From the sequence record NC_100371.1: 64,000 nt of DNA; one strand, 5' to 3'. Positions 5,192 through 62,828 of this stretch are shown here, piece by piece (within the stretch, counting starts at the first letter, position 1; every line of letters begins with the position of its first letter). The DNA is from a phage. Both the position numbers and the translations under genes were made by a program. The notes beneath the pieces were generated by a model. The model saw only the letters and a program-made list of their open reading frames with translations. It was not told the DNA's origin and made no database searches.

Positions 5192-5268
5192 TGGTCTCCA
5201 CGGAGTGATTCGAACACTCGACCTCCTGATCCCAAATCAGGCGCTCTACCAAGCTGAGCTACGCGGAG
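5192..5268 (-). tRNA. tRNA-Pro (anticodon UGG)
   Basis: Hand-folded cloverleaf: 7-bp acceptor stem, GTTCGAAT T-loop, anticodon loop TTTGGGA, encoded CCA. Confidence 0.75.
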
Positions 5269-5279
5269 TATTTATTATT

Positions 5280-5354
5280 TGGTGGCCCTGGGTGGAATTG
5301 AACCACCGTCTGGCGATTATGAGTCGCTTGCTTGAACCTTCCAGCTACAGGGCC
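5280..5354 (-). tRNA. tRNA-Met (anticodon CAU; could be initiator or Ile-lysidine type)
   Basis: Acceptor GGCCCTG/CAGGGCC, T-arm GGTGGTTCAATTCCACC, anticodon loop CTCATAA, encoded CCA. Confidence 0.7.
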
Positions 5355-5355
5355 A

Positions 5356-5431
5356 TGGTGCTGATGGCAGGACTTGAACCTGCAACCTATTGATTACAAA
5401 TCAATTGCACTGCCAATTGTGCTACATCAGC
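5356..5431 (-). tRNA. tRNA-Thr (anticodon UGU)
   Basis: Perfect 7-bp acceptor stem, D-stem GCAC/GTGC, anticodon loop TTTGTAA, T-arm GCAGGTTCAAGTCCTGC, CCA. Confidence 0.75.
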
Positions 5432-5435
5432 AAAA

Positions 5436-5534
5436 GGTGCTAGGTGATGGAATCGAACCATCTATGTATTCAACGACTACCTCGTCTATTTTCAGGATTA
5501 AAAATCCTCGCCCTTGCCAAAGGGCTTACCTAGC
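5436..5534 (-). tRNA. atypical tRNA-like gene (long variable region; anticodon not assignable by eye)
   Basis: Perfect acceptor pairing GCTAGGT/ACCTAGC and canonical T-arm GATGGTTCGATTCCATC, but about 99 nt long with an unusual anticodon-arm region (AGGAT-TTTTA-ATCCT); no complete encoded CCA. Confidence 0.4.
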
Positions 5535-5632
5535 TCAGCATGTTGACCATGTTGCTAGTCGGCGATGACGACTGTAACATTTGATAATCCGGTTCTGCTT
5601 CCGGCTTTCGCTTAATTACAAGGTCAACAATA

Positions 5633-5723
5633 TGGCAGAGGATAATGGAATCGAACCATCATCGAGTCATCCTCAACGGGACGGTTTTCAAGACCGCTTG
5701 AGCACCATTGCTCCCTACCCTCT
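5633..5723 (-). tRNA. tRNA-Ser (anticodon UGA), type II
   Basis: Acceptor AGAGGGT/ATCCTCT, anticodon loop CTTGAAA, long variable arm, T-arm GATGGTTCGATTCCATT, CCA. Confidence 0.7.
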
Positions 5724-5837
5724 TTTATAAACAATACTGATAATGACACTGATTTTCGAGCAGTTAGTGACTAGTATAAACGACGATAAATATCAATGCC
5801 ATTATCTGTATGATTTATGCATTTAAAAATATAAATT

Positions 5838-5925
5838 TGGTGGTGAGTGATGGAGTCGAACCACCCGAATCGCAATGATAACAGATTTACAGTCTGCCCC
5901 GCTACCCCTACGGAATTAACTCACC
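5838..5925 (-). tRNA. tRNA-Tyr (anticodon GUA), type II
   Basis: Acceptor GGTGAGT/ACTCACC, anticodon loop CTGTAAA, long variable arm, CCA. Confidence 0.7.
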
Positions 5926-6055
5926 TAAATACTAATATTTAAATTCTTTTTAAAATAGCTAGTGTTCTAACCACTAACTATGAGGTATCGGTAAAGTGGT
6001 TACCGCCACTTGCCGAAGATTTACTCTGCTAAAGTAAGCTACATTAAAAAGAACT

Positions 6056-6130
6056 TGGCACCCCGTACTGGACTCGAACCAGTGTCAACGGCTTAGAAGG
6101 CCGCTGCTTTATCCACTAAGCTAACAGGGC
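6056..6130 (-). tRNA. tRNA-Arg (anticodon UCU)
   Basis: Acceptor GCCCTGT/ACGGGGT, anticodon loop CTTCTAA, T-arm ACTGGTTCGAGTCCAGT, CCA. Confidence 0.75.
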
Positions 6131-47405: not shown

Positions 47406-48766
47406 TTAAGTTCTTCTCTTTTCTTTTACCGAGTAATTCGGGTTTTCTGTTCTCTTCGGTTTGAAGGGGTATGGAGATACACCTGAGTGAACAGGGTGAA
47501 CAACCGAACATTTGGCTATGGCATTAGCATGGCGAAGCGGACGGGTGACGAAAGAGGGGCCGGAGGACACCAGTCACTGCCATATAGTATATGGGTGATA
47601 ACCTGAAGAGTCTGAATAAGTGTTTAAGTACCAGTCAGAGGAAAAGGTGAATGGTAGCCGAAGGGGGAGAGGGGGTTTCTTATATCTTTAATTTGTATAT
47701 TATGTATACACTTGTAAACCAATTCAATTAGGATCTGTTTACCACACAAAGTGGATGGAGACAAATATCACCTATTAAACTTGAATTATTTATAGAAAAT
47801 ACCACAACACCTCTTAAGTATTTGATTTTACACACAAATCTTACAAATATCCTACCTCCATATTTAACATACTTGTAACATATTCCATATCCTACCTGCC
47901 TGATCAATTTACTCCCACCACATCCCCACATTTTCCCTGTCTGTACTACCCCTGCCCCGCCGGGAGTCCCGTCATATCTGGCTTTCCAGCAAATATCGCA
48001 CCCACAAATATCATCACCTGAAGAGGGTTTCATCCCATAATACCTGCCTTACCTGAAGAGCGCTTCATACACCACGTAAATTTTTTAATTGACCCCTCCC
48101 CGCCGCCGGAGAGGTTGGCTTTTCCCACACAGGCCTGAAGAGTCAGCCAGAAATATCTGAACAGGTCCAGTTATACCCCGATTTTGTGCCTGTCCTACAG
48201 GAGTGCTGCCCTGTCAGGAGCCGGTAGCGACTGGAGTGCTGCCAGGCGGACGGAATGGGAATACTTCTCATTTTTATAATAATTCTCAAATATCGAGGCA
48301 GTGAGGCAAATTAATAGGCCAGGCCGTTCACACAGTGGCACAACATTTGCAATCTATCTTGTGGGAGTGAATGAGAATACCTATCATTGTGAGAATGGTT
48401 ATCATTACGGGCAATTTAACATAATACCCATTATGCGCACCACTGGCGATACATACAGGGATTGATAACATGGGTTACTGTTTACGCATATAACAATTAT
48501 ATTTCTTACTATTTGTGTGGGATATAGTTAGCAACCAATAGATTAGATATTGACCTGCAGACTTCTGACCGTCCAGACGTCTAAACGCCCACACAGCAAG
48601 GATTATACATACACTCCTGCATGTAAACAGGACCGCAAAAATGCTACCATACCAGTTTGTAAATTTTTCATGCAGCACTTGACAAAGAGGAGAAAAACTT
48701 GTCTGACACACTGGACACAATGTCCCACAATATGACACAATAACGGCTGTTACTATTCCATATCTC

Positions 48767-48824
48767 ACTGTTTACGCATAGACTGTTTACGCCTGAATAG
48801 TTTACGCAAAAACTGTTTACACAG
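48767..48824. repeat. four tandem iteron-like direct repeats (ACTGTTTACGC)
   Basis: Copies at 14-17-bp spacing; further copies near 48477, 49231 and 49267. Confidence 0.55.
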
Positions 48825-50556: not shown

Positions 50557-50617
50557 GATGTTTTCCTCTTTATGTGGTCCTGGTTTAGTGGGCCTTTTGG
50601 CCCGTGTCATTATCTTA

Positions 50618-50890
50618 TTACTTACGGCGGCAGAATTCAAGCGTTTTTAATTGATAATCTTCCTCAGCCTGGAGTACAACCGCCTCGATCATTTCGTTGG
50701 CATTGTTGAAGCCATACCCTTTAGCGAACTCGTCCGCACCACCTTCGTGATCATGTTCTGCGTTCATCGCTTCCACGAAATGGAATTCAAGATTATTGAG
50801 ATAAGGGCTTGATGTTCCGTCCTCTTTTTCGATGAGATCCCAAATAGTATTAAAACGTGATTCGACTTCTTGGTTAATCCAGCTTAACAT
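50618..50890 (-). CDS. hypothetical acidic protein
   Basis: 90 aa; AGAGAGGAAAAC RBS. Confidence 0.45.
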   Translation of the reverse strand: MLSWINQEVESRFNTIWDLIEKEDGTSSPYLNNLEFHFVEAMNAEHDHEGGADEFAKGYGFNNANEMIEAVVLQAEEDYQLKTLEFCRRK

Positions 50891-50996
50891 GGCGTTTTCC
50901 TCTCTTCTGGTTGTTGTGTGGGCACTTTTGCCCCTTCAAGATAAATGTTACCCTACCACCTGGCAGGTGTCAACGGTTTTTATAGTTTTTTATATG

Positions 50997-51043
50997 ACAG
51001 GCACCCCCGGTGATTGTCTCCCCCCGTCACCAGGTGCCTGCCG
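50997..51043. repeat. GC-rich long-hairpin repeat element (inverted copy of the 59318 family)
   Basis: GACAGGCACCCCCGGTGATTGTCTCCCCCCGTCACCAGGTGCCTGCC; preceded on the minus strand by a TTGTAA-N16-TATACT promoter-like sequence. Confidence 0.45.
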
Positions 51044-51102
51044 TGAAATAAGTATAACAAAAAACAGGACCATTACAAGCCCTGTTTTATGGTTTATAAA
51101 GA

Positions 51103-51294
51103 TTATATTTTTTCGCCTATATAGTCCGGTCGGTTTTTCTCTGTCATACGCTTAAGCAATTCTTGCATGTTGCTTATGGCTTGTAGTGTATCCTCTTCAA
51201 GGGATGAATCGAGATAATCAGGATCATTCTTCACCTTGCAATGATTATGGTAACGTAGTACTGCCAGTACTTTTTTAACTTCTTCTGCTGTCAT
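51103..51294 (-). CDS. hypothetical protein
   Basis: 63 aa. Confidence 0.4.
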   Translation of the reverse strand: MTAEEVKKVLAVLRYHNHCKVKNDPDYLDSSLEEDTLQAISNMQELLKRMTEKNRPDYIGEKI

Positions 51295-58256: not shown

Positions 58257-58655
58257 TTATTCGTGGGCGCATGTTACAATGTGCTTTTTATAGCCCAGGT
58301 GGTTAGCAAGTGCCGACAAAAACTCTTCTTCATAGATCCAGCCGTTGGCAGTGATCCCCATAGCATTTAATGCGCTCTCAAGTGCTGCATTAGCTTTATC
58401 GTAACCGTGACCGCTCGCCTTCCCGCCAGTATAACCGTACTTATTGTTCTTGTTGTCGTGAATCCAAAAAACACAGTATTGAGTGTTCCCGCTGGCGGCG
58501 GCATAATACCGGATCTCAGCTACTTCGTGCAAATTATTGTCATCGTCCAGGCCCACCAGATTATAAGCCTTGTAAAATCCACGATCACGGCGGCAGTTCT
58601 TGACATCAGAAAAAGAAAAGTCCGCATTATCAAAATTAAAGGTAGTGGTTTTCAT
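58257..58655 (-). CDS. hypothetical protein
   Basis: 132 aa; AAGAGGATAAAATC RBS. Confidence 0.5.
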   Translation of the reverse strand: MKTTTFNFDNADFSFSDVKNCRRDRGFYKAYNLVGLDDDNNLHEVAEIRYYAAASGNTQYCVFWIHDNKNNKYGYTGGKASGHGYDKANAALESALNAMGITANGWIYEEEFLSALANHLGYKKHIVTCAHE

Positions 58656-58719
58656 GATTTTATCCTCTTAGTGTCTTTTGTGCTTTTAGTGTATTTGGTG
58701 TCAGACTGTATGTCAATAC

Positions 58720-58917
58720 TTATTTTTTATTAAACCAGTGGTTGATCTGGCCTTTTGTCAGGGCGCAACGATTAAGCTGTTGCCGGGTGTAGCTCTGACC
58801 GCGACGGAATTTATAAAGGCCTTGCCCGTTGTTGATGGTTACGTCCACCTGGCAAATCATTTGATCGGTGACGGCCTGGCGAGTGTTGCGACGTACTTTA
58901 ATTCCGTAGGCGTTCAT
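58720..58917 (-). CDS. hypothetical basic protein
   Basis: 65 aa; GAGAGGATAAAATC RBS, near-identical to the upstream gene's RBS context. Confidence 0.45.
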   Translation of the reverse strand: MNAYGIKVRRNTRQAVTDQMICQVDVTINNGQGLYKFRRGQSYTRQQLNRCALTKGQINHWFNKK

Positions 58918-59000
58918 GATTTTTATCCTCTCTGTTAATTAGTGTGGTGTTGTTCACCTTGCGAGGATAAGAATAACAGAACTATCCGAGCTGTCAACCA

Positions 59001-59162
59001 TTAGTTAGAATTATTTTTTGGGCAGAATTCTCCAGCCGCCGCCCCTGCCAGGTTAACCATCATTTTTTCGTACTCTTCTTTATGTTCCAACGCTCCCGCC
59101 ATAGCCTTTTCAACCAGGGCGATAGCCTCAGCGTCATTAATCGCTACATTTCCAGGGATCAT
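59001..59162 (-). CDS. hypothetical protein (53 aa)
   Basis: GAAGAGGAGG RBS region; not in the ORF track. Confidence 0.35.
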   Translation of the reverse strand: MIPGNVAINDAEAIALVEKAMAGALEHKEEYEKMMVNLAGAAAGEFCPKNNSN

Positions 59163-59271
59163 ATTACCTTTTATTTTTGTACCTCCTCTTCAGTTGTTGC
59201 CTACCCTATAGCATAGCCCCGCCAGGTTGCAACGGTTAGCGCATCAGGTTAGAATTTTTTTTTGAAAAGTG

Positions 59272-59540
59272 TTGACAGCGGCCCCGCCAGGTGGCACAAT
59301 ATACCTATCGAAAGGACGGCAGGCACCGGTGACGGGGGAGACAACCACCGGGGATGGGCGCTGCATAAAATGAGAACGGTTATCATTATCATTTAAAAAT
59401 TTATGCAAAAAATCCTTGCTTTCTTTGTCCTGTGTGATACTATAATAACAAGCCGGGGCAACAGGGGCCGGGAGACAATCACCGGGGGTGCCCGTTATTC
59501 TGCAAACGAGAATGATTATCATTCAAAATTCTAAATGAGA
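59272..59540 (+). ncRNA. candidate small RNA units (two tandem promoter plus GC-hairpin modules)
   Basis: TTGACA-N17-CACAAT at 59272-59300 and a TATAAT box near 59441, each followed by a GGCAGGCACC...GGTGCC-type hairpin and the shared tail GAGAA(C/T)G(G/A)TTATCATT; no ORF. Speculative. Confidence 0.25.
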
Positions 59541-59726
59541 CCTTTTCGCATTTCATAAATTTAGTTAGCATGCTAATTACCTACCGTGACAATTCTATAT
59601 AAAATAATACCTCCTTAAGTATTTCCATATACAAATTTTAAAAATCCATTTCCGAAAACGAAAAATCGATTTCGTCCCCAAAAATTTCAGGTCGAGCTCC
59701 GGAACGATTTCCAGAAAATCTGATTC

Positions 59727-59820
59727 AGAAAACGAAAAACAGATCGAGTACTAAGAAATTTATCGAGAAAAATTTTCAGAAAATTCAATCTTTGGAACGA
59801 AAAACAGATCGAGTACTGAG
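59727..59820. repeat. direct repeats AACGAAAAACAGATCGAGTACT(A/G)AG
   Basis: Copies at 59727-59754 and 59794-59820, with a partial copy at 59652-59677; TCCATTTT motifs recur at 59641-60090. Confidence 0.5.
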
Positions 59821-60128
59821 AGAGATGTATCAAAACCTACTGAGAATAATGGGTTTATTGTTATAAAGGGTCAAAGGTAAGCTGGGAAAGTTCTGGTAGA
59901 AGGGTGAGAGTATGTGCGGAAAATCTGGAATAGTAACTTAAAGTACGGTGCGAACGATAGAATGAGCAGCACATCTTATCGCGCCTGTCTTGAAAAATCC
60001 ATTTTAGTTTTCGATCCATTTTCTGATTTTCTAAGAATTTTAAAATATCCGGCCAGGTAAAATATCAAAAGGAGGAAGTCCATTTTAGAAATCCTCCTTA
60101 TACTTGATGTGCCAGGGATTTTCAAGTA

Positions 60129-60458
60129 TCAACTGTCTTTGTTTTTAGGCTTGTGCATACGTAGAGGTATGGTCTTTATAACATTCCATCTACCCAACCC
60201 CTCCCAGTTCCAATTGTGAGCGTGATACCCGGTTATGCATGCACTGCTGGCGTGATCATAAGCATAAGAGAACGCTATGCGAACCAGGTGGGGCCAGTCC
60301 CTCCACGGCTGTGGACCGTAAGCCTTTCTCCAACACCGACACAAACTAATTGTCTCAAGAATAGGTAGAATAACAAATCCATATACCGCCACCAAAATGG
60401 TCAGAGCAATGATTGTCAGGAATACATACCCTGCAGTTGAAATAATGATCTCTGTCAT
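60129..60458 (-). CDS. membrane protein
   Basis: Hydrophobic N-terminal region; AAGGGGATGACA RBS. Confidence 0.45.
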   Translation of the reverse strand: MTEIIISTAGYVFLTIIALTILVAVYGFVILPILETISLCRCWRKAYGPQPWRDWPHLVRIAFSYAYDHASSACITGYHAHNWNWEGLGRWNVIKTIPLRMHKPKNKDS

Positions 60459-60658
60459 TTGTCATCCCCTTTCTTACGGATATAGATGTGAGAGCCCGCT
60501 TGTACATAAATTTCCCGACCATCTTCTGCAAAGATGTGGAATACACGGTCGCCTTCGTATTCAATACGAGATATCTTCATAACGGTCTTCCCACCAGGGA
60601 TGCGGATCTCATCACCCACAGCAATGTTCCATGCAGATTTAAGCTTAAACATCTGCAC
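60455..60658 (-). CDS. hypothetical protein
   Basis: 67 aa; AAAGGAGGG RBS. Confidence 0.45.
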   Translation of the reverse strand: MQMFKLKSAWNIAVGDEIRIPGGKTVMKISRIEYEGDRVFHIFAEDGREIYVQAGSHIYIRKKGDDK

Positions 60659-61954: not shown

Positions 61955-62413
61955 TCAACACTCTTTGTACTCCACCACGATAATATCTATATCAAAAGTG
62001 GCAAGGTTAATAATGTCCTCTACATGTTCCCACTTCAAACCGCCTATGCCGCACCCGATCTTAGGGATGTAGAATGGTAAAATCGACCCCTCAAATACTT
62101 CATTGACTCGCTCAAATCCTTTCAGTATTGAGAAATATTCAGCATTAGGCCCTGGGTAGAACTGAGTATACAGATTTATTCCGTAGACAATACCTCTCGG
62201 AGATAAGTGCTCCCAGCGGGAGAACGCGCCCAGTTTACTTAGGCAACCGTGCATAGTCATTTTATCAGCTTCCAATGCTTGAGGGAACTCACGGGCAATC
62301 TGTTTTGCTACACCCTTACCCATTGTGTGGAAGCAGTTACAACCGTGGATCAGGTGACCAGCACCGCTCTTAAAAAGGGAGATTAAATCTCCCTCTACAG
62401 TATCAATAATCAC
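61955..62413 (-). CDS. macrodomain protein, TARG1/OARD1/DarG-like
   Basis: GDLISLF...HLIHGCNCFHTMGKGVAKQIAREFP...IPKIGCGIGGLKWEHVEDII parallels the TARG1 blocks GDLF...[21 protein letters not shown]...PRIGCGLDRLQWENVSAMI; GTG start at 62413 with GAGGAG RBS. Confidence 0.5.
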   Translation of the reverse strand: MIIDTVEGDLISLFKSGAGHLIHGCNCFHTMGKGVAKQIAREFPQALEADKMTMHGCLSKLGAFSRWEHLSPRGIVYGINLYTQFYPGPNAEYFSILKGFERVNEVFEGSILPFYIPKIGCGIGGLKWEHVEDIINLATFDIDIIVVEYKEC

Positions 62414-62828
62414 GATATTCCAGCTCCTCTTCCACAATTTCAAAAAACTCAGTCCAGCACTGTGGCATATTGGAGTTACCGAAGTGGCTTTCATAGTAAA
62501 GGTTTTTACCGCTCGGAAGATAGAAATCTGTTACCTCATAAAATCCACAATCGTCGCACTCTCCCTCTTCAAACTTGGCCTTAATCTTAATACCAAGGAA
62601 GGTGAAAAGTTTATGGATATCTTCGGTCTCGAACTCCCAACTAATGTTGTTTTCCGCATCGGTGTAAAACTGGATCAGTAGGCCATCATCCATTTTTCCA
62701 AAATATTCTGTGAAGTAGCTCCCTTCCCAGAAGTCTTTGTGACAAATAATATCCATGCGCTTGCCCATAATAAAGGTGTGGGCGTTTCGTGCATCGTCAC
62801 GAATCAGTTTTGGCATTTCATAAATCAT
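62403..62828 (-). CDS. hypothetical protein upstream of and overlapping the macrodomain gene
   Basis: 141 aa with a CDDC pair; GGAGAA RBS. Confidence 0.45.
   Translation of the reverse strand: MIYEMPKLIRDDARNAHTFIMGKRMDIICHKDFWEGSYFTEYFGKMDDGLLIQFYTDAENNISWEFETEDIHKLFTFLGIKIKAKFEEGECDDCGFYEVTDFYLPSGKNLYYESHFGNSNMPQCWTEFFEIVEEELEYRDY

What the first reader, a model, noticed from the sequence alone, without database searches (positions are those of the whole stretch)
59170..60128. Repeat-rich intergenic region with tandem promoter-hairpin units; one related copy 8 kb away
About 950 bp without a credible ORF contains two tandem modules (59272-59400 and 59430-59540), each with a promoter-like box followed by a GC-rich long hairpin (GGCAGGCACCGGTGACGGGGGAGACAA(C/T)CACCGGGG) and a shared tail. 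These are followed by direct repeats AACGAAAAACAGATCGAGTACT and recurring TCCATTTT motifs. A third copy of the hairpin lies inverted at 50997-51043, also behind a promoter-like sequence. The ORF-track peptides containing GTPGDCLP (59244-59522 and 50832-51155) are translations of this repeat, not genes. Candidate small-RNA family or protein-binding structured DNA.
Basis: seen in the sequence. Interest (0 to 1): 0.65.

Follow-up and report, generated by a model that had tools for sequence, protein, structure and literature searches.

The report
Phage promoter–motif cassettes with host Fur boxes
Inside a gene-free island of an rV5-like E. coli phage, two tandem cassettes each join a promoter, a conserved 24-30-base motif and, at a fixed distance, binding sites of the kind used by the host iron regulator Fur, which suggests the phage reads host iron status or ties up Fur there.

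Summary
The window is a Vequintavirus (rV5-like coliphage). The repeats are real. The core GGGAGACAAYCACCGGGG occurs three times (59336+, 59470+, 51005-), against 0.05 expected.

Only the 51-kb copy folds unusually well. Across about 30 lineages the flanks do not co-evolve.

What is conserved is a strand-specific sequence motif. It starts about 23 nt downstream of a sigma70-type promoter, in Vequintavirinae, Phapecoctavirus, Pseudomonas Nankokuvirus and other phage contigs.

The "shared tail" is a Fur-type operator (AATGAGAATnATTCTCATT).
- A matrix built only from phage boxes picks out the three Fur-controlled ent/fep promoter regions of E. coli K-12.
- In bacteria the exact box sits next to fur, feoAB and ferric-iron transporter genes.
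- The first box lies 31-33 nt after the motif start; further boxes usually follow at 29-nt steps.

Downstream lie an AT-rich stretch and three iterons that are homologous even in Pseudomonas phage PAK_P3. The overlapping ORFs are not genes.

Best reading (about 0.4): Fur-gated, promoter-proximal transcription running into an origin-like or insulator island. No transcript has been shown. PAK_P3 long-read data list no start site at the homologous promoter.

The parts
59205..59232 (-). Promoter-like site (TTGCAA-16-TATAGG) for the downstream early ORF 59001-59162. It marks the left edge of the island.
   Evidence: Read from the sequence. Its spacer motif CCCCGCCAGGTTGCA recurs in P1.
59272..59300 (+). 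P1: sigma70-type promoter TTGACA-17-CACAAT with an extended -10 TG, firing against the flanking genes.
   Evidence: It matches 10 of 12 plus TG. It is 99% conserved in Vequintavirus, and one relative carries CATAAT, a better -10.
59334..59362 (+). Motif copy 1 (GGGGGAGACAACCACCGGGGATGGG), starting 37 nt after the -10.
   Evidence: E 5e-5. It folds only weakly (z -1.7).
59369..59387 (.). Fur-type box 1, AATGAGAACGGTTATCATT, 31 nt after the start of motif 1.
   Evidence: (PWM score 25.7).
59416..59446 (+). P2: TTGCTT-16-TACTAT, or TTGCTT-19-TATAAT.
   Evidence: It matches 8 of 12 here. The homologous promoter scores 9-10 of 12 in other genera at the same distance from the motif. It is 98% conserved.
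59468..59499 (+). Motif copy 2 (CCGGGAGACAATCACCGGGGGTGCCCGTTATT).
   Evidence: E 6e-9. It is conserved at 80-90% identity in other genera. Its fold is no better than shuffled sequence (z 0.0).
59505..59523 (.). Fur-type box 2, AACGAGAATGATTATCATT, 33 nt after the start of motif 2.
   Evidence: (score 26.1). It is 100% conserved in Vequintavirus.
59534..59552 (.). Fur-type box 3 (degenerate), AATGAGACCTTTTCGCATT, 29 nt after box 2.
   Evidence: family D3; score 18.0.
59553..59640 (.). AT-rich stretch (70-75% AT, against 57.6% for the window) containing the palindrome TTAGCATGCTAA (59565-59576).
59641..59826 (.). Three iteron units with core GAAAACGAAAAAcaGATCGAGTACT, at about 59657, 59731 and 59796.
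   Evidence: (families D1 and D5). Homologous triplets occur in Seunavirus, Certrevirus, Mydovirus, TH18 and PAK_P3, and two copies in Aeromonas phage 2L372D.
59998..60067 (.). Short repeats at the right end of the island: TCCATTTT at 59998 and 60015 (a third copy lies at 60079, in the loop of the 60069-60099 hairpin) and AAATATC(A) at 60043 and 60060.
   Evidence: AAATATCA repeats are also seen at this end in other genera.
60069..60099 (-). Stem-loop AAGGAGGA...TCCTCCTT followed by a T-rich tract on the minus strand. It is the likely terminator of ORF 60129-60458 and the right edge of the island.
   Evidence: Read from the sequence. The simple scan did not call it because the loop is 15 nt.
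51051..51088 (-). Terminator-like hairpin of the upstream gene whose loop and T-run carry the promoter TTGTAA-16-TATACT with TG.
   Evidence: The same arrangement is seen in phAPEC8, PsgM04F and CR9.
50994..51043 (-). Motif copy 3. This is the only copy that forms a strong hairpin. It points in the direction of the genes and starts 30 nt after its -10.
   Evidence: z -4.4; E 1e-7. No Fur box follows it here, but one does in CR9.

Best explanation
The two 'promoter-hairpin units' are three-part cassettes inside a conserved gene-free control island of about 0.9 kb.

Each cassette has three parts:
1. A host-type (sigma70) promoter that fires rightward, against the surrounding early genes.
2. A sequence motif of about 24-30 nt (GAGACAAHCACC, 4-5 nt, then TGCSYG) that begins about 23 nt into the transcript.
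3. A 19-bp palindrome with the specificity of the host iron repressor Fur, starting exactly 31-33 nt after the motif start. Further boxes usually follow at 29-nt steps.

Proposed mechanism: Fur-Fe2+ bound at about +56 to +74 blocks RNA polymerase while its active centre and bubble are on or just past the motif. Iron-replete cells would then make only very short G-rich transcripts. Iron-poor cells, or cells in which Fur has been titrated, would let transcription run on through the AT-rich stretch and the three iterons. That downstream part looks like a replication-origin or transcription-insulator module.

Shown: the parts, their conservation, the rigid spacing, and the Fur specificity of the boxes.
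Inferred: that the promoters fire, that Fur binds, that it stalls polymerase, and what read-through does.
For: - The motif has three copies in the window, and no others.
- In Vequintavirus the cassettes are 97-100% identical, against 89-97% for the flanking CDS and 80% for 59827-59985.
- The motif is tied to a promoter and to one strand. A site matching at least 9 of 12 lies within 100 nt upstream on the same strand in 23 of 32 unique instances. The figures are 5 of 32 for the opposite strand and 7 of 32 downstream. The median distance from the -10 to the motif is 30 nt.
- The instances include unrelated phages.
- Evidence that the boxes are Fur boxes:
  - A PWM built from 88 phage boxes puts its six best hits in 32 kb of E. 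coli K-12 in fepB|entC, fepA|fes and fepD|entS. These score 11.4-18.5, and the next hit scores 6.6.
  - The best E. coli match to a phage box array lies upstream of fhuE.
  - Of 75 ORFs next to the exact palindrome in bacterial genomes, 5 are fur and 7 are extracellular solute-binding proteins. Others include FeoA/B, FTR1, ZnuA, TonB Plug and ECF sigma.
  - Half-sites vary independently between TGAGAAT and the canonical TGATAAT. At pair 6/14, 42 of 88 boxes are mismatched and only 3 of 88 boxes are fully complementary. This argues for a dimeric protein site rather than an RNA hairpin.
- Rigid spacing: 30 of 43 unique motif instances have a box within 300 nt downstream. The first box is at offset 31 or 33 in 25 of those 30, and the commonest later offsets are 62, 91 and 120/129.
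- The island is bounded by a terminator-like hairpin (60069-60099) and the next minus-strand promoter (59205-59232).
- In PAK_P3 the homologous island lies between the mapped terminator T022, inside its iterons, and promoter P035.
Against: - No transcript has been observed.
- In PAK_P3, ONT-cappable-seq lists no start site on either strand between 48439 and 51049, so the homologous promoter (predicted start about 50880, minus strand) was not detected. RNA-seq annotated no sRNA there. RNAs under about 100 nt may have been lost, and PAK_P3 has no Fur boxes.
- Classical Fur repression overlaps the -35/-10, whereas here the boxes lie 55-100 nt downstream.
- P2 is a modest match (8 of 12) in this phage.
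- 13 of 43 motif instances, including copy 3 of this window, have no box. The motif must therefore have a function of its own that this model does not explain.
- No structure, target or binding partner for the motif was found.
Confidence: 0.4

Rival explanations
1. The island is the phage's lytic replication origin, or one of several. Iterons, Fur boxes and the motif would be DNA-level protein-binding sites. P1 and P2 would serve only to open the AT-rich region or to supply a G-rich primer or R-loop, as at T4 oriF/oriG, the T7 primary origin or ColE1. This can coexist with the best explanation.
For: - A CDS-free island of 0.9-1.2 kb with the same order of parts occurs in at least 6 genera.
- It carries three iterons with a conserved core and similar spacing (63-78 bp), homologous even in PAK_P3.
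- A 70-75% AT stretch lies between the boxes and the iterons.
- The promoters point into it.
- In another phage contig (L016), two Fur-type boxes sit inside a cluster of DnaA boxes.
- The rV5 authors could not find an origin from skew.
Against: - This window's island has no DnaA box.
- No initiator gene is recognisable next to it.
- GC skew only follows gene orientation.
- The iteron spacing is unlike classical origins.
- Copy 3 has the motif but no iterons.
- The fixed strand and distance of the motif relative to a promoter are not needed for a site on double-stranded DNA.
Confidence: 0.2
2. The units are genes for small, structured, trans-acting RNAs whose conserved loop sequence pairs with host or phage targets.
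For: - Each copy has its own promoter and the orientation is strand-specific.
- The sequence is strongly conserved.
- Copy 3 is a stable hairpin with the motif in its loop and 3' arm.
- An outer helix is 74% paired against 29-49% in slid controls, with 5 pairs changed on both sides.
- U- or AU-rich tracts follow the motif in several lineages.
Against: - No consensus structure was found, and the flanks do not co-evolve.
- The scan of 58500-60600 found no terminator-like site on the plus strand.
- There is no Rfam match.
- The window holds no complementary target, and pairing with the rRNA operon is at chance level.
- The homologue was not detected in PAK_P3 transcriptomes.
Confidence: 0.15
3. 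The Fur-box arrays act in trans as a sponge. Hundreds of replicating phage genomes, each carrying six boxes in this window, would titrate host Fur as multicopy plasmids do in the Fur titration assay. This would derepress iron uptake and iron-sparing functions to the phage's benefit.
For: - The boxes come in arrays of 1-5, mostly phased at 29 nt.
- A second cluster lies at 48254-48406.
- Arrays also occur where no motif was found, as in L023 and L016.
- The box scores (18-26) exceed those of the natural ent/fep operators (11-18) under the phage-derived matrix.
- That multicopy Fur boxes derepress the regulon is established knowledge (the FURTA assay), cited here from memory.
Against: - Titration does not need a rigid 31-33-nt coupling to the motif.
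- Some close relatives replace the boxes with other repeats (L184 and L179).
- The matrix was built from phage boxes, so the score comparison is biased.
Confidence: 0.1
4. The GC-rich elements work on the other strand as terminators or insulators. They would stop transcription of the upstream early genes before the next promoter.
For: - In PAK_P3 the longest gene-sense read-through reads end at 50872 and 50897, at the GC-rich motif/promoter segment. The main terminator T022 lies in the iterons.
- The complements of modules 1 and 2 are followed by moderately U-rich tracts.
Against: - A terminator would not need 24 nt of primary sequence conserved across phage families.
- A terminator would not need a promoter at a fixed distance on the opposite strand.
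- Module 2 does not fold better than chance on either strand.
- Copy 3 lies downstream of a separate, canonical terminator.
Confidence: 0.1
5. The region encodes small proteins, as annotated in rV5 (ORF198/199) and FV3 (ORF182/183).
For: - ORF 59244-59522 (92 aa) is open in the window, rV5 and some Certrevirus genomes.
Against: - The homologous ORF stops after 6-38 codons in 8 of 13 relatives, including another Vequintavirus.
- Its start codon lies inside Fur box 2 with no ribosome-binding site.
- Conservation is at the nucleotide level.
- B9-1 and several other records leave the gap unannotated.
Confidence: 0.02

Closest known systems
Fur box / Fur regulon operators of Gammaproteobacteria (for example iucA, fepA-fes, fepB-entC, fhuE)
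   Same: Both are 19-bp palindromes with 7-1-7 half-sites TGAGAAT or TGATAAT. The two are cross-recognised: a phage-derived matrix finds the E. coli ent/fep operators, and the exact phage box flanks fur, feoAB and iron-transport genes in bacteria.
   Different: Here the boxes sit in a virulent phage, 55-100 nt downstream of the promoters rather than over the -35/-10. They form phased arrays, mostly at 29-nt steps, and are locked at 31-33 nt from an unrelated motif. No downstream ORF is being controlled.
Promoter-proximal, strand-specific cis elements that act on the transcribing polymerase (RfaH ops, lambda nut, HK022 put, lambdoid Q pause sites)
   Same: Both are short conserved elements at a fixed short distance downstream of a promoter, in one orientation only, and conserved as sequence.
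   Different: There is no sequence similarity to ops, boxA/boxB or put. No cognate factor is known, and no long operon lies downstream to be antiterminated. This comparison rests on position only and was made from memory.
Transcription-dependent and iteron-type phage or plasmid origins (T4 oriF/oriG, T7 primary origin, ColE1 RNA II, lambda ori, P1 oriR)
   Same: Both have promoter(s) firing into an AT-rich stretch, a G-rich early transcript, direct repeats, and host-factor sites.
   Different: Here the iterons are 63-78 bp apart. The window has no DnaA box and no adjacent initiator gene. Origin activity is untested.
PeSL cassettes (promoter-early stem-loop) of T4-type phages
   Same: Both are repeated promoter plus stem-loop modules lying between small early genes. 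Copy 3 is a terminator hairpin fused to a promoter.
   Different: PeSLs are recombination-prone cassettes placed in the gene direction. Here two of the three copies point against the genes, the conserved part is a transcribed motif, and Fur boxes are attached. This comparison is from memory.
Non-coding RNAs reported in related phages (pseudo-ToxI of Certrevirus PhiTE; sRNA1 and sRNA2 of PAK_P3)
   Same: All are non-coding loci of the same wider phage lineage.
   Different: They are different loci and sequences. No ToxI-like repeat (at least 24 of 36 nt) occurs in the 8.9-kb PhiTE locus examined, which contains this island. PAK_P3 sRNA1 and sRNA2 lie at 85.3 and 86.3 kb, not at the motif at 50.8 kb.

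Membership tests
Fur operator (Fur box) | A 19-bp inverted repeat matching the consensus (GATAATGATAATCATTATC, or as 7-1-7 TGATAATnATTATCA) | tested here: met
   The three island boxes match 14-15 of 19 to the classical consensus. By eye they match 16 of 18 to the shifted palindrome AATGATAATnATTATCATT. TGATAAT is the second commonest half-site among 88 phage boxes.
Fur operator (Fur box) | The same sequence specificity as sites at known Fur-regulated genes | tested here: met
   The six best hits of the phage-box PWM in 32 kb of E. coli K-12 all lie in fepB|entC, fepA|fes and fepD|entS. The best chromosomal match to a phage box array lies upstream of fhuE. In bacteria the exact box is next to fur, feoAB, FTR1 and solute-binding-protein genes.
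Fur operator (Fur box) | Overlaps the -35/-10 or the start site of the repressed promoter | tested here: not met
   The boxes are centred at about +62 to +91 from P1 and P2. A minus-strand site over boxes 2 and 3 (ATGAAA-17-TAGAAT) has a -35 that is not conserved.
Fur operator (Fur box) | Bound by Fur with Fe2+ or Mn2+ | not testable with these tools
   This needs EMSA or footprinting. No phage-encoded Fur homologue was found in these phage groups.
Trans-acting small RNA gene | Own promoter | tested here: met
   This rests on consensus matches and conservation only.
Trans-acting small RNA gene | A defined 3' end (intrinsic terminator) | tested here: not met
   The scan found no terminator-like site on the plus strand of 58500-60600. 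Only U- or AU-rich tracts appear in some lineages.
Trans-acting small RNA gene | A conserved secondary structure supported by covariation | tested here: inconclusive
   RNAalifold found no consensus. A hand-drawn outer helix is 74% paired against 29-49% in slid controls. An alignment-free co-evolution test gave p 0.17.
Trans-acting small RNA gene | A transcript has been detected | not testable with these tools
   Published PAK_P3 data list no start site and no sRNA at the homologous locus. Short RNAs may have been missed.
Iteron-type replication origin | Three or more direct repeats next to an AT-rich region | tested here: met
Iteron-type replication origin | An adjacent initiator gene and/or DnaA boxes | tested here: not met
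   The neighbouring genes have no known family. No DnaA box matching at least 8 of 9 lies in 59170-60128.
Iteron-type replication origin | Origin activity | not testable with these tools
   This needs replication mapping or a plasmid assay.
Any Rfam family | A covariance-model match | tested here: not met
   Nothing beyond chance was found in the window region or in eleven related loci.

The most novel reading that the evidence does not exclude
A composite element (sigma70 promoter, then the GAGACAAHCACC motif about 23 nt into the transcript, then Fur boxes starting about 55 nt in, mostly at 29-nt steps) is a previously undescribed iron-sensing switch of virulent phages. On this reading host Fur stalls RNA polymerase exactly on a conserved motif. 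The motif recruits or releases a factor, or ends the transcript, and so sets replication or early-gene timing by iron status. In addition or instead, the arrays titrate Fur to derepress host iron supply. The motif alone would define a new promoter-proximal element shared by Vequintavirinae, Stephanstirmvirinae, Nankokuvirus and other phages.
Probability: 0.2. Interest if true: 0.8.

Novelty: new variant of a known kind. Interest (0 to 1): 0.62.

Why it matters
rV5-like, phi92-like and PAK_P3-like phages are widely used therapy candidates. Their replication origins and early regulation are unknown; the rV5 paper marks a 'non-coding' box and reports that skew analysis did not locate an origin.

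If host Fur binds these arrays, a strictly lytic phage would read host iron status, or would manipulate it. Iron limitation is the normal condition in infected tissue, so this would bear on how well such phages perform there.

The motif is a conserved, unannotated element present in several phage families and absent from Rfam. The full-text searches made here found no paper describing Fur boxes in virulent phages.

All the parts are short and cloneable, so the proposal can be tested directly.

Tried and rejected
- Rfam: searches at gathering and permissive thresholds, on the window and on eleven related loci, gave nothing.
- Coding: rejected, because the ORF is truncated in relatives.
- Conserved hairpin: not supported.
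- Boxes as RNA hairpins: rejected, because changes in the two half-sites are not compensatory.
- Pairing of the motif with E. coli 16S, 23S, 5S or spacer tRNAs: the longest complement is 8-9 nt, the same as for shuffled motifs.
- blastn of the hairpin against 5,426 E. coli genomes gave no match. This has little power for short seeds.
- ToxI or pseudo-ToxI identity: rejected.
- Identity with PAK_P3 sRNA1 or sRNA2: rejected, because they lie at other loci.
- Phage-encoded Fur: none found in these phage groups.
- DnaA boxes in the island: none.
- GC skew as a guide to the origin: it follows gene strand only.
- Minus-strand Fur-repressed promoter with a leaderless ORF (ATGAAA-17-TAGAAT, ATG at 59522): considered, but the -35 and the ORF are not conserved.
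- Neighbouring proteins: all are of unknown function.
- One literature search was too broad and gave nothing useful.
Full report
**What the window is.** The target region matches about 120 Vequintavirus (rV5-like) coliphage genomes at 80-99% identity; the best is phage B9-1 at 98.7%. It lies inside a long array of small minus-strand early genes. Annotators disagree about it. rV5 and FV3 call ORFs across it, whereas B9-1 leaves it empty.

**Checking the observation.**
- The 18-nt core GGGAGACAAYCACCGGGG occurs three times in 64 kb (59336+, 59470+, 51005-), against 0.05 expected.
- A profile HMM built from 33 distinct instances in many phages finds the same three sites and nothing else.
- Modules 1 and 2 align over the promoter, core and tail. 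The direct repeats at 59731 and 59796 are real, and a diverged third copy lies at about 59657.
- TCCATTTT clusters three times in 59998-60086.
- The long hairpin is a property of copy 3 only (z -4.4). Module 1 gives z -1.7 and module 2 gives z 0.0.

**Not coding.** The 92-codon minus-strand ORF (GTPGDCLP) starts at an ATG inside a palindromic box. Its homologue stops after 6-38 codons in 8 of 13 relatives, including another Vequintavirus. The neighbouring genes have no known function.

**A conserved island.** The same order of parts is kept on the window's plus strand in:
- Seunavirus SSE121;
- Certrevirus CR8, P7_Pc, F1M1E and PhiTE;
- Mydovirus BIS47;
- phage TH18;
- Phapecoctavirus anhysbys;
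- in reduced form, Aeromonas phage 2L372D.

The order is: promoter, structured or GC-rich segment, a second promoter, GC-rich segment ending in CACCGGGGGTGCCYG..ATTC, one to four palindromic boxes, repeated iteron units (three in most lineages), then AAATATCA repeats.

In Vequintavirus the first unit is a duplicate of the second type. In the other genera it is a different RNA-like segment.

Within Vequintavirus, the promoters, motifs and boxes 1 and 2 are 97-100% identical. Flanking genes are 89-97% identical and 59827-59985 is 80%. One relative changes the P1 -10 from CACAAT to CATAAT, which is a better match.

**The shared tail is a Fur-type operator.** The box AATGAGAATnATTCTCATT occurs six times in the window, against 0.6 expected. 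Three copies are in the island (59369, 59505, 59534) and three are at 48254-48406. Five independent tests bear on its identity:
1. The best match of a phage box array in 5,426 E. coli genomes lies 70-115 bp upstream of fhuE. The match is weak (E = 2), but the place is telling.
2. The exact palindrome occurs in more than 120 bacterial genomes. Of 75 ORFs next to it, 5 are fur itself and 7 are extracellular solute-binding proteins. Others include FeoA/B, FTR1, ZnuA, TonB Plug, ECF sigma and AhpC.
3. A weight matrix built only from 88 distinct phage boxes was scanned over 32 kb of E. coli K-12. Its six best hits all fall in the three Fur-controlled bidirectional promoter regions fepB|entC, fepA|fes and fepD|entS. 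These score 11.4-18.5, and the next hit scores 6.6.
4. The two half-sites vary independently between TGAGAAT and TGATAAT, the canonical Fur heptamer. At pair 6/14, 42 of 88 boxes are non-complementary. Only 3 of 88 boxes are fully complementary. This fits a dimeric protein site and does not fit an RNA hairpin.
5. No Fur homologue is found in any Vequintavirinae, Phapecoctavirus or Nankokuvirus record. The likely reader is therefore host Fur.

**The motif is a promoter-proximal, strand-specific sequence, not a conserved hairpin.**
- A degenerate pattern finds it in 32 viral contigs. These include Pseudomonas Nankokuvirus (PAK_P3, KPP10) and contigs of 27-94 kb unrelated to rV5.
- In 23 of 32 unique instances a sigma70-type site matching at least 9 of 12 lies within 100 nt upstream on the same strand. 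The figures are 5 of 32 for the opposite strand and 7 of 32 downstream. The -10 ends a median of 30 nt before the motif.
- RNAalifold finds no consensus fold, and folding z-scores are mostly near zero.
- Cognate 5' and 3' flanks pair no better than non-cognate ones (p 0.17).
- A hand-drawn outer helix gets modest support: 74% paired against 29-49% in slid controls.
- There is no Rfam match.
- No target was found in the window or in the rRNA operon.

**Copy 3.** On the minus strand, the terminator of the upstream gene carries a promoter in its loop and T-run (TTGTAA-16-TATACT with TG). The motif follows 30 nt later, and after it comes the promoter of the next gene. The same arrangement is conserved in phAPEC8, in the phage deposited as Pseudomonas phage PsgM04F, and in Cronobacter phage CR9. 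In CR9 a Fur-type box follows the motif.

**Rigid coupling.** Of 43 unique motif instances, 30 have a box within 300 nt downstream. The first box starts 31 or 33 nt after the motif start in 25 of those 30. The commonest later offsets are 62, 91 and 120/129, which is a 29-nt phase. With the start site about 23 nt before the motif, the first box covers about +56 to +74.

From general knowledge of polymerase footprints, a polymerase halted by a protein bound there would have its active centre and bubble on or just past the motif. This geometry is an inference.

**Downstream parts.**
- A 70-75% AT stretch (59553-59640) follows the boxes.
- Next come three iterons. Their core is conserved in all the genera examined, and three copies are also present in PAK_P3 (GAAAATCTGTCGAGTACCTT).
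- The island ends at a stem-loop with a T-tract that would terminate ORF 60129-60458.
- In PAK_P3, long-read mapping places a gene-sense termination site (T022, 50625) inside the iterons, with the next gene-sense start at 51049. Read-through reads end at 50872 and 50897, at the GC-rich segment. No start site is listed on either strand between 48439 and 51049.
- The predicted motif promoter was therefore not seen in PAK_P3. The method and the earlier RNA-seq disfavour RNAs under about 100 nt, and PAK_P3 has no Fur boxes, so this counts against the model without excluding it. The two published PAK_P3 sRNAs lie elsewhere.

**Interpretation.** I commit, at about 0.4, to this model. P1 and P2 are active host-type promoters. 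Their transcription is gated just downstream by Fur bound to the phased boxes. Read-through enters an origin-like or insulator module.

The origin reading (0.2) is compatible with this model. It is helped by a contig in which Fur-type boxes sit among DnaA boxes. It is weakened by the lack of DnaA boxes and of an initiator gene here.

The other readings are a trans-acting sRNA (0.15), a Fur sponge (0.1), and gene-sense terminators (0.1). None of these is excluded.

**Novelty.** Fur boxes, promoters and iterons are each known kinds of element. New here are their fixed combination with an unannotated motif shared across phage families, and the presence of a host iron-regulator operator array in a virulent phage. 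The full-text searches made here found no paper describing Fur boxes in virulent phages. The rV5 paper only marks a 'non-coding' box and reports that skew did not reveal an origin.

Noticed in passing
window 48254-48406 (within about 48034-48474): A second cluster of three Fur-type boxes (48254, 48370, 48388) lies at the junction of the convergent plus-strand and minus-strand gene blocks, next to a minus-strand promoter-like site (48449..48421). The flanking ORFs 47728-48033 and 48475-48768 match no PHROG family, so the gene-free stretch may be larger. It may be the 'non-coding' box drawn in the rV5 paper.
   Followed up: partly
L006 1850-1990; L008 1290-1420; L009 1300-1440; L010 1290-1430; L013 1215-1360: In genera other than Vequintavirus, the first unit of the island is a different conserved segment of about 100 nt placed behind a near-consensus promoter. 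It shows apparent pseudoknot covariation (CGCC-ACCCCAC-GGCG...GGGG against ...CCAAC...TTGG) and ends in GATCGCCGGTAG, which resembles the RfaH ops element GGCGGTAG. It is absent from this window and has no Rfam match.
   Followed up: partly
L008 1410-1440, L009 1435-1460, L010 1425-1450, L013 1345-1370: A direct repeat GTAAA-N5-GTAAA sits just upstream of the -35 of P2 in the other genera. From memory this matches the CpxR consensus. It is not present in the window.
   Followed up: no
L016 1215-1370: An unrelated 5.8-kb viral contig has two Fur-type boxes embedded in a cluster of five to seven DnaA boxes (TTATCCACA and variants).
   Followed up: no
L023 7035-7135: A GC-rich viral contig carries four tandem Fur-type boxes at a 28-nt period, extended to 25-bp palindromes (TTGAATGCGAATGATTCGCATTCAA). 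Three copies of a repeat of about 50 nt precede them.
   Followed up: no
window 59217-59231, 59282-59296, 50954-50968: Three promoters share a spacer motif CCnGCCAGGTkG, partly palindromic (CACCTG-C-CAGGTG). Two lie on the minus strand and one on the plus strand. It could be an operator for another regulator.
   Followed up: partly
L184 (motif at about 12651 on the reversed strand) and L179 18-130: In two divergent Vequintavirus-like contigs the motif of the second unit is followed by a GTTATT...AATAAC palindrome and ACTATAAATAA repeats instead of Fur boxes. The module downstream of the motif is therefore exchangeable.
   Followed up: no
L187 1860-1960 (PAK_P3 record 50560-50660): The experimentally mapped terminator T022 of PAK_P3 lies inside its three iterons, which have no convincing hairpin. 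A protein bound to the iterons could be what stops transcription there.
   Followed up: partly
window 5192-6130: A cluster of six minus-strand tRNA genes. One of them, at 5436-5534, is called by ARAGORN with a four-base anticodon (atcc) and an unusual length.
   Followed up: no
window 61955-62494: A minus-strand ORF with a Macro domain (PHROG annotation 'phosphatase') lies among the small early genes.
   Followed up: no
phage collection records MG0656xx: Sixteen to eighteen records named 'Campylobacter phage' are about 90% identical to this E. coli phage region. This looks like a host mislabelling or contamination in the deposited records.
   Followed up: no
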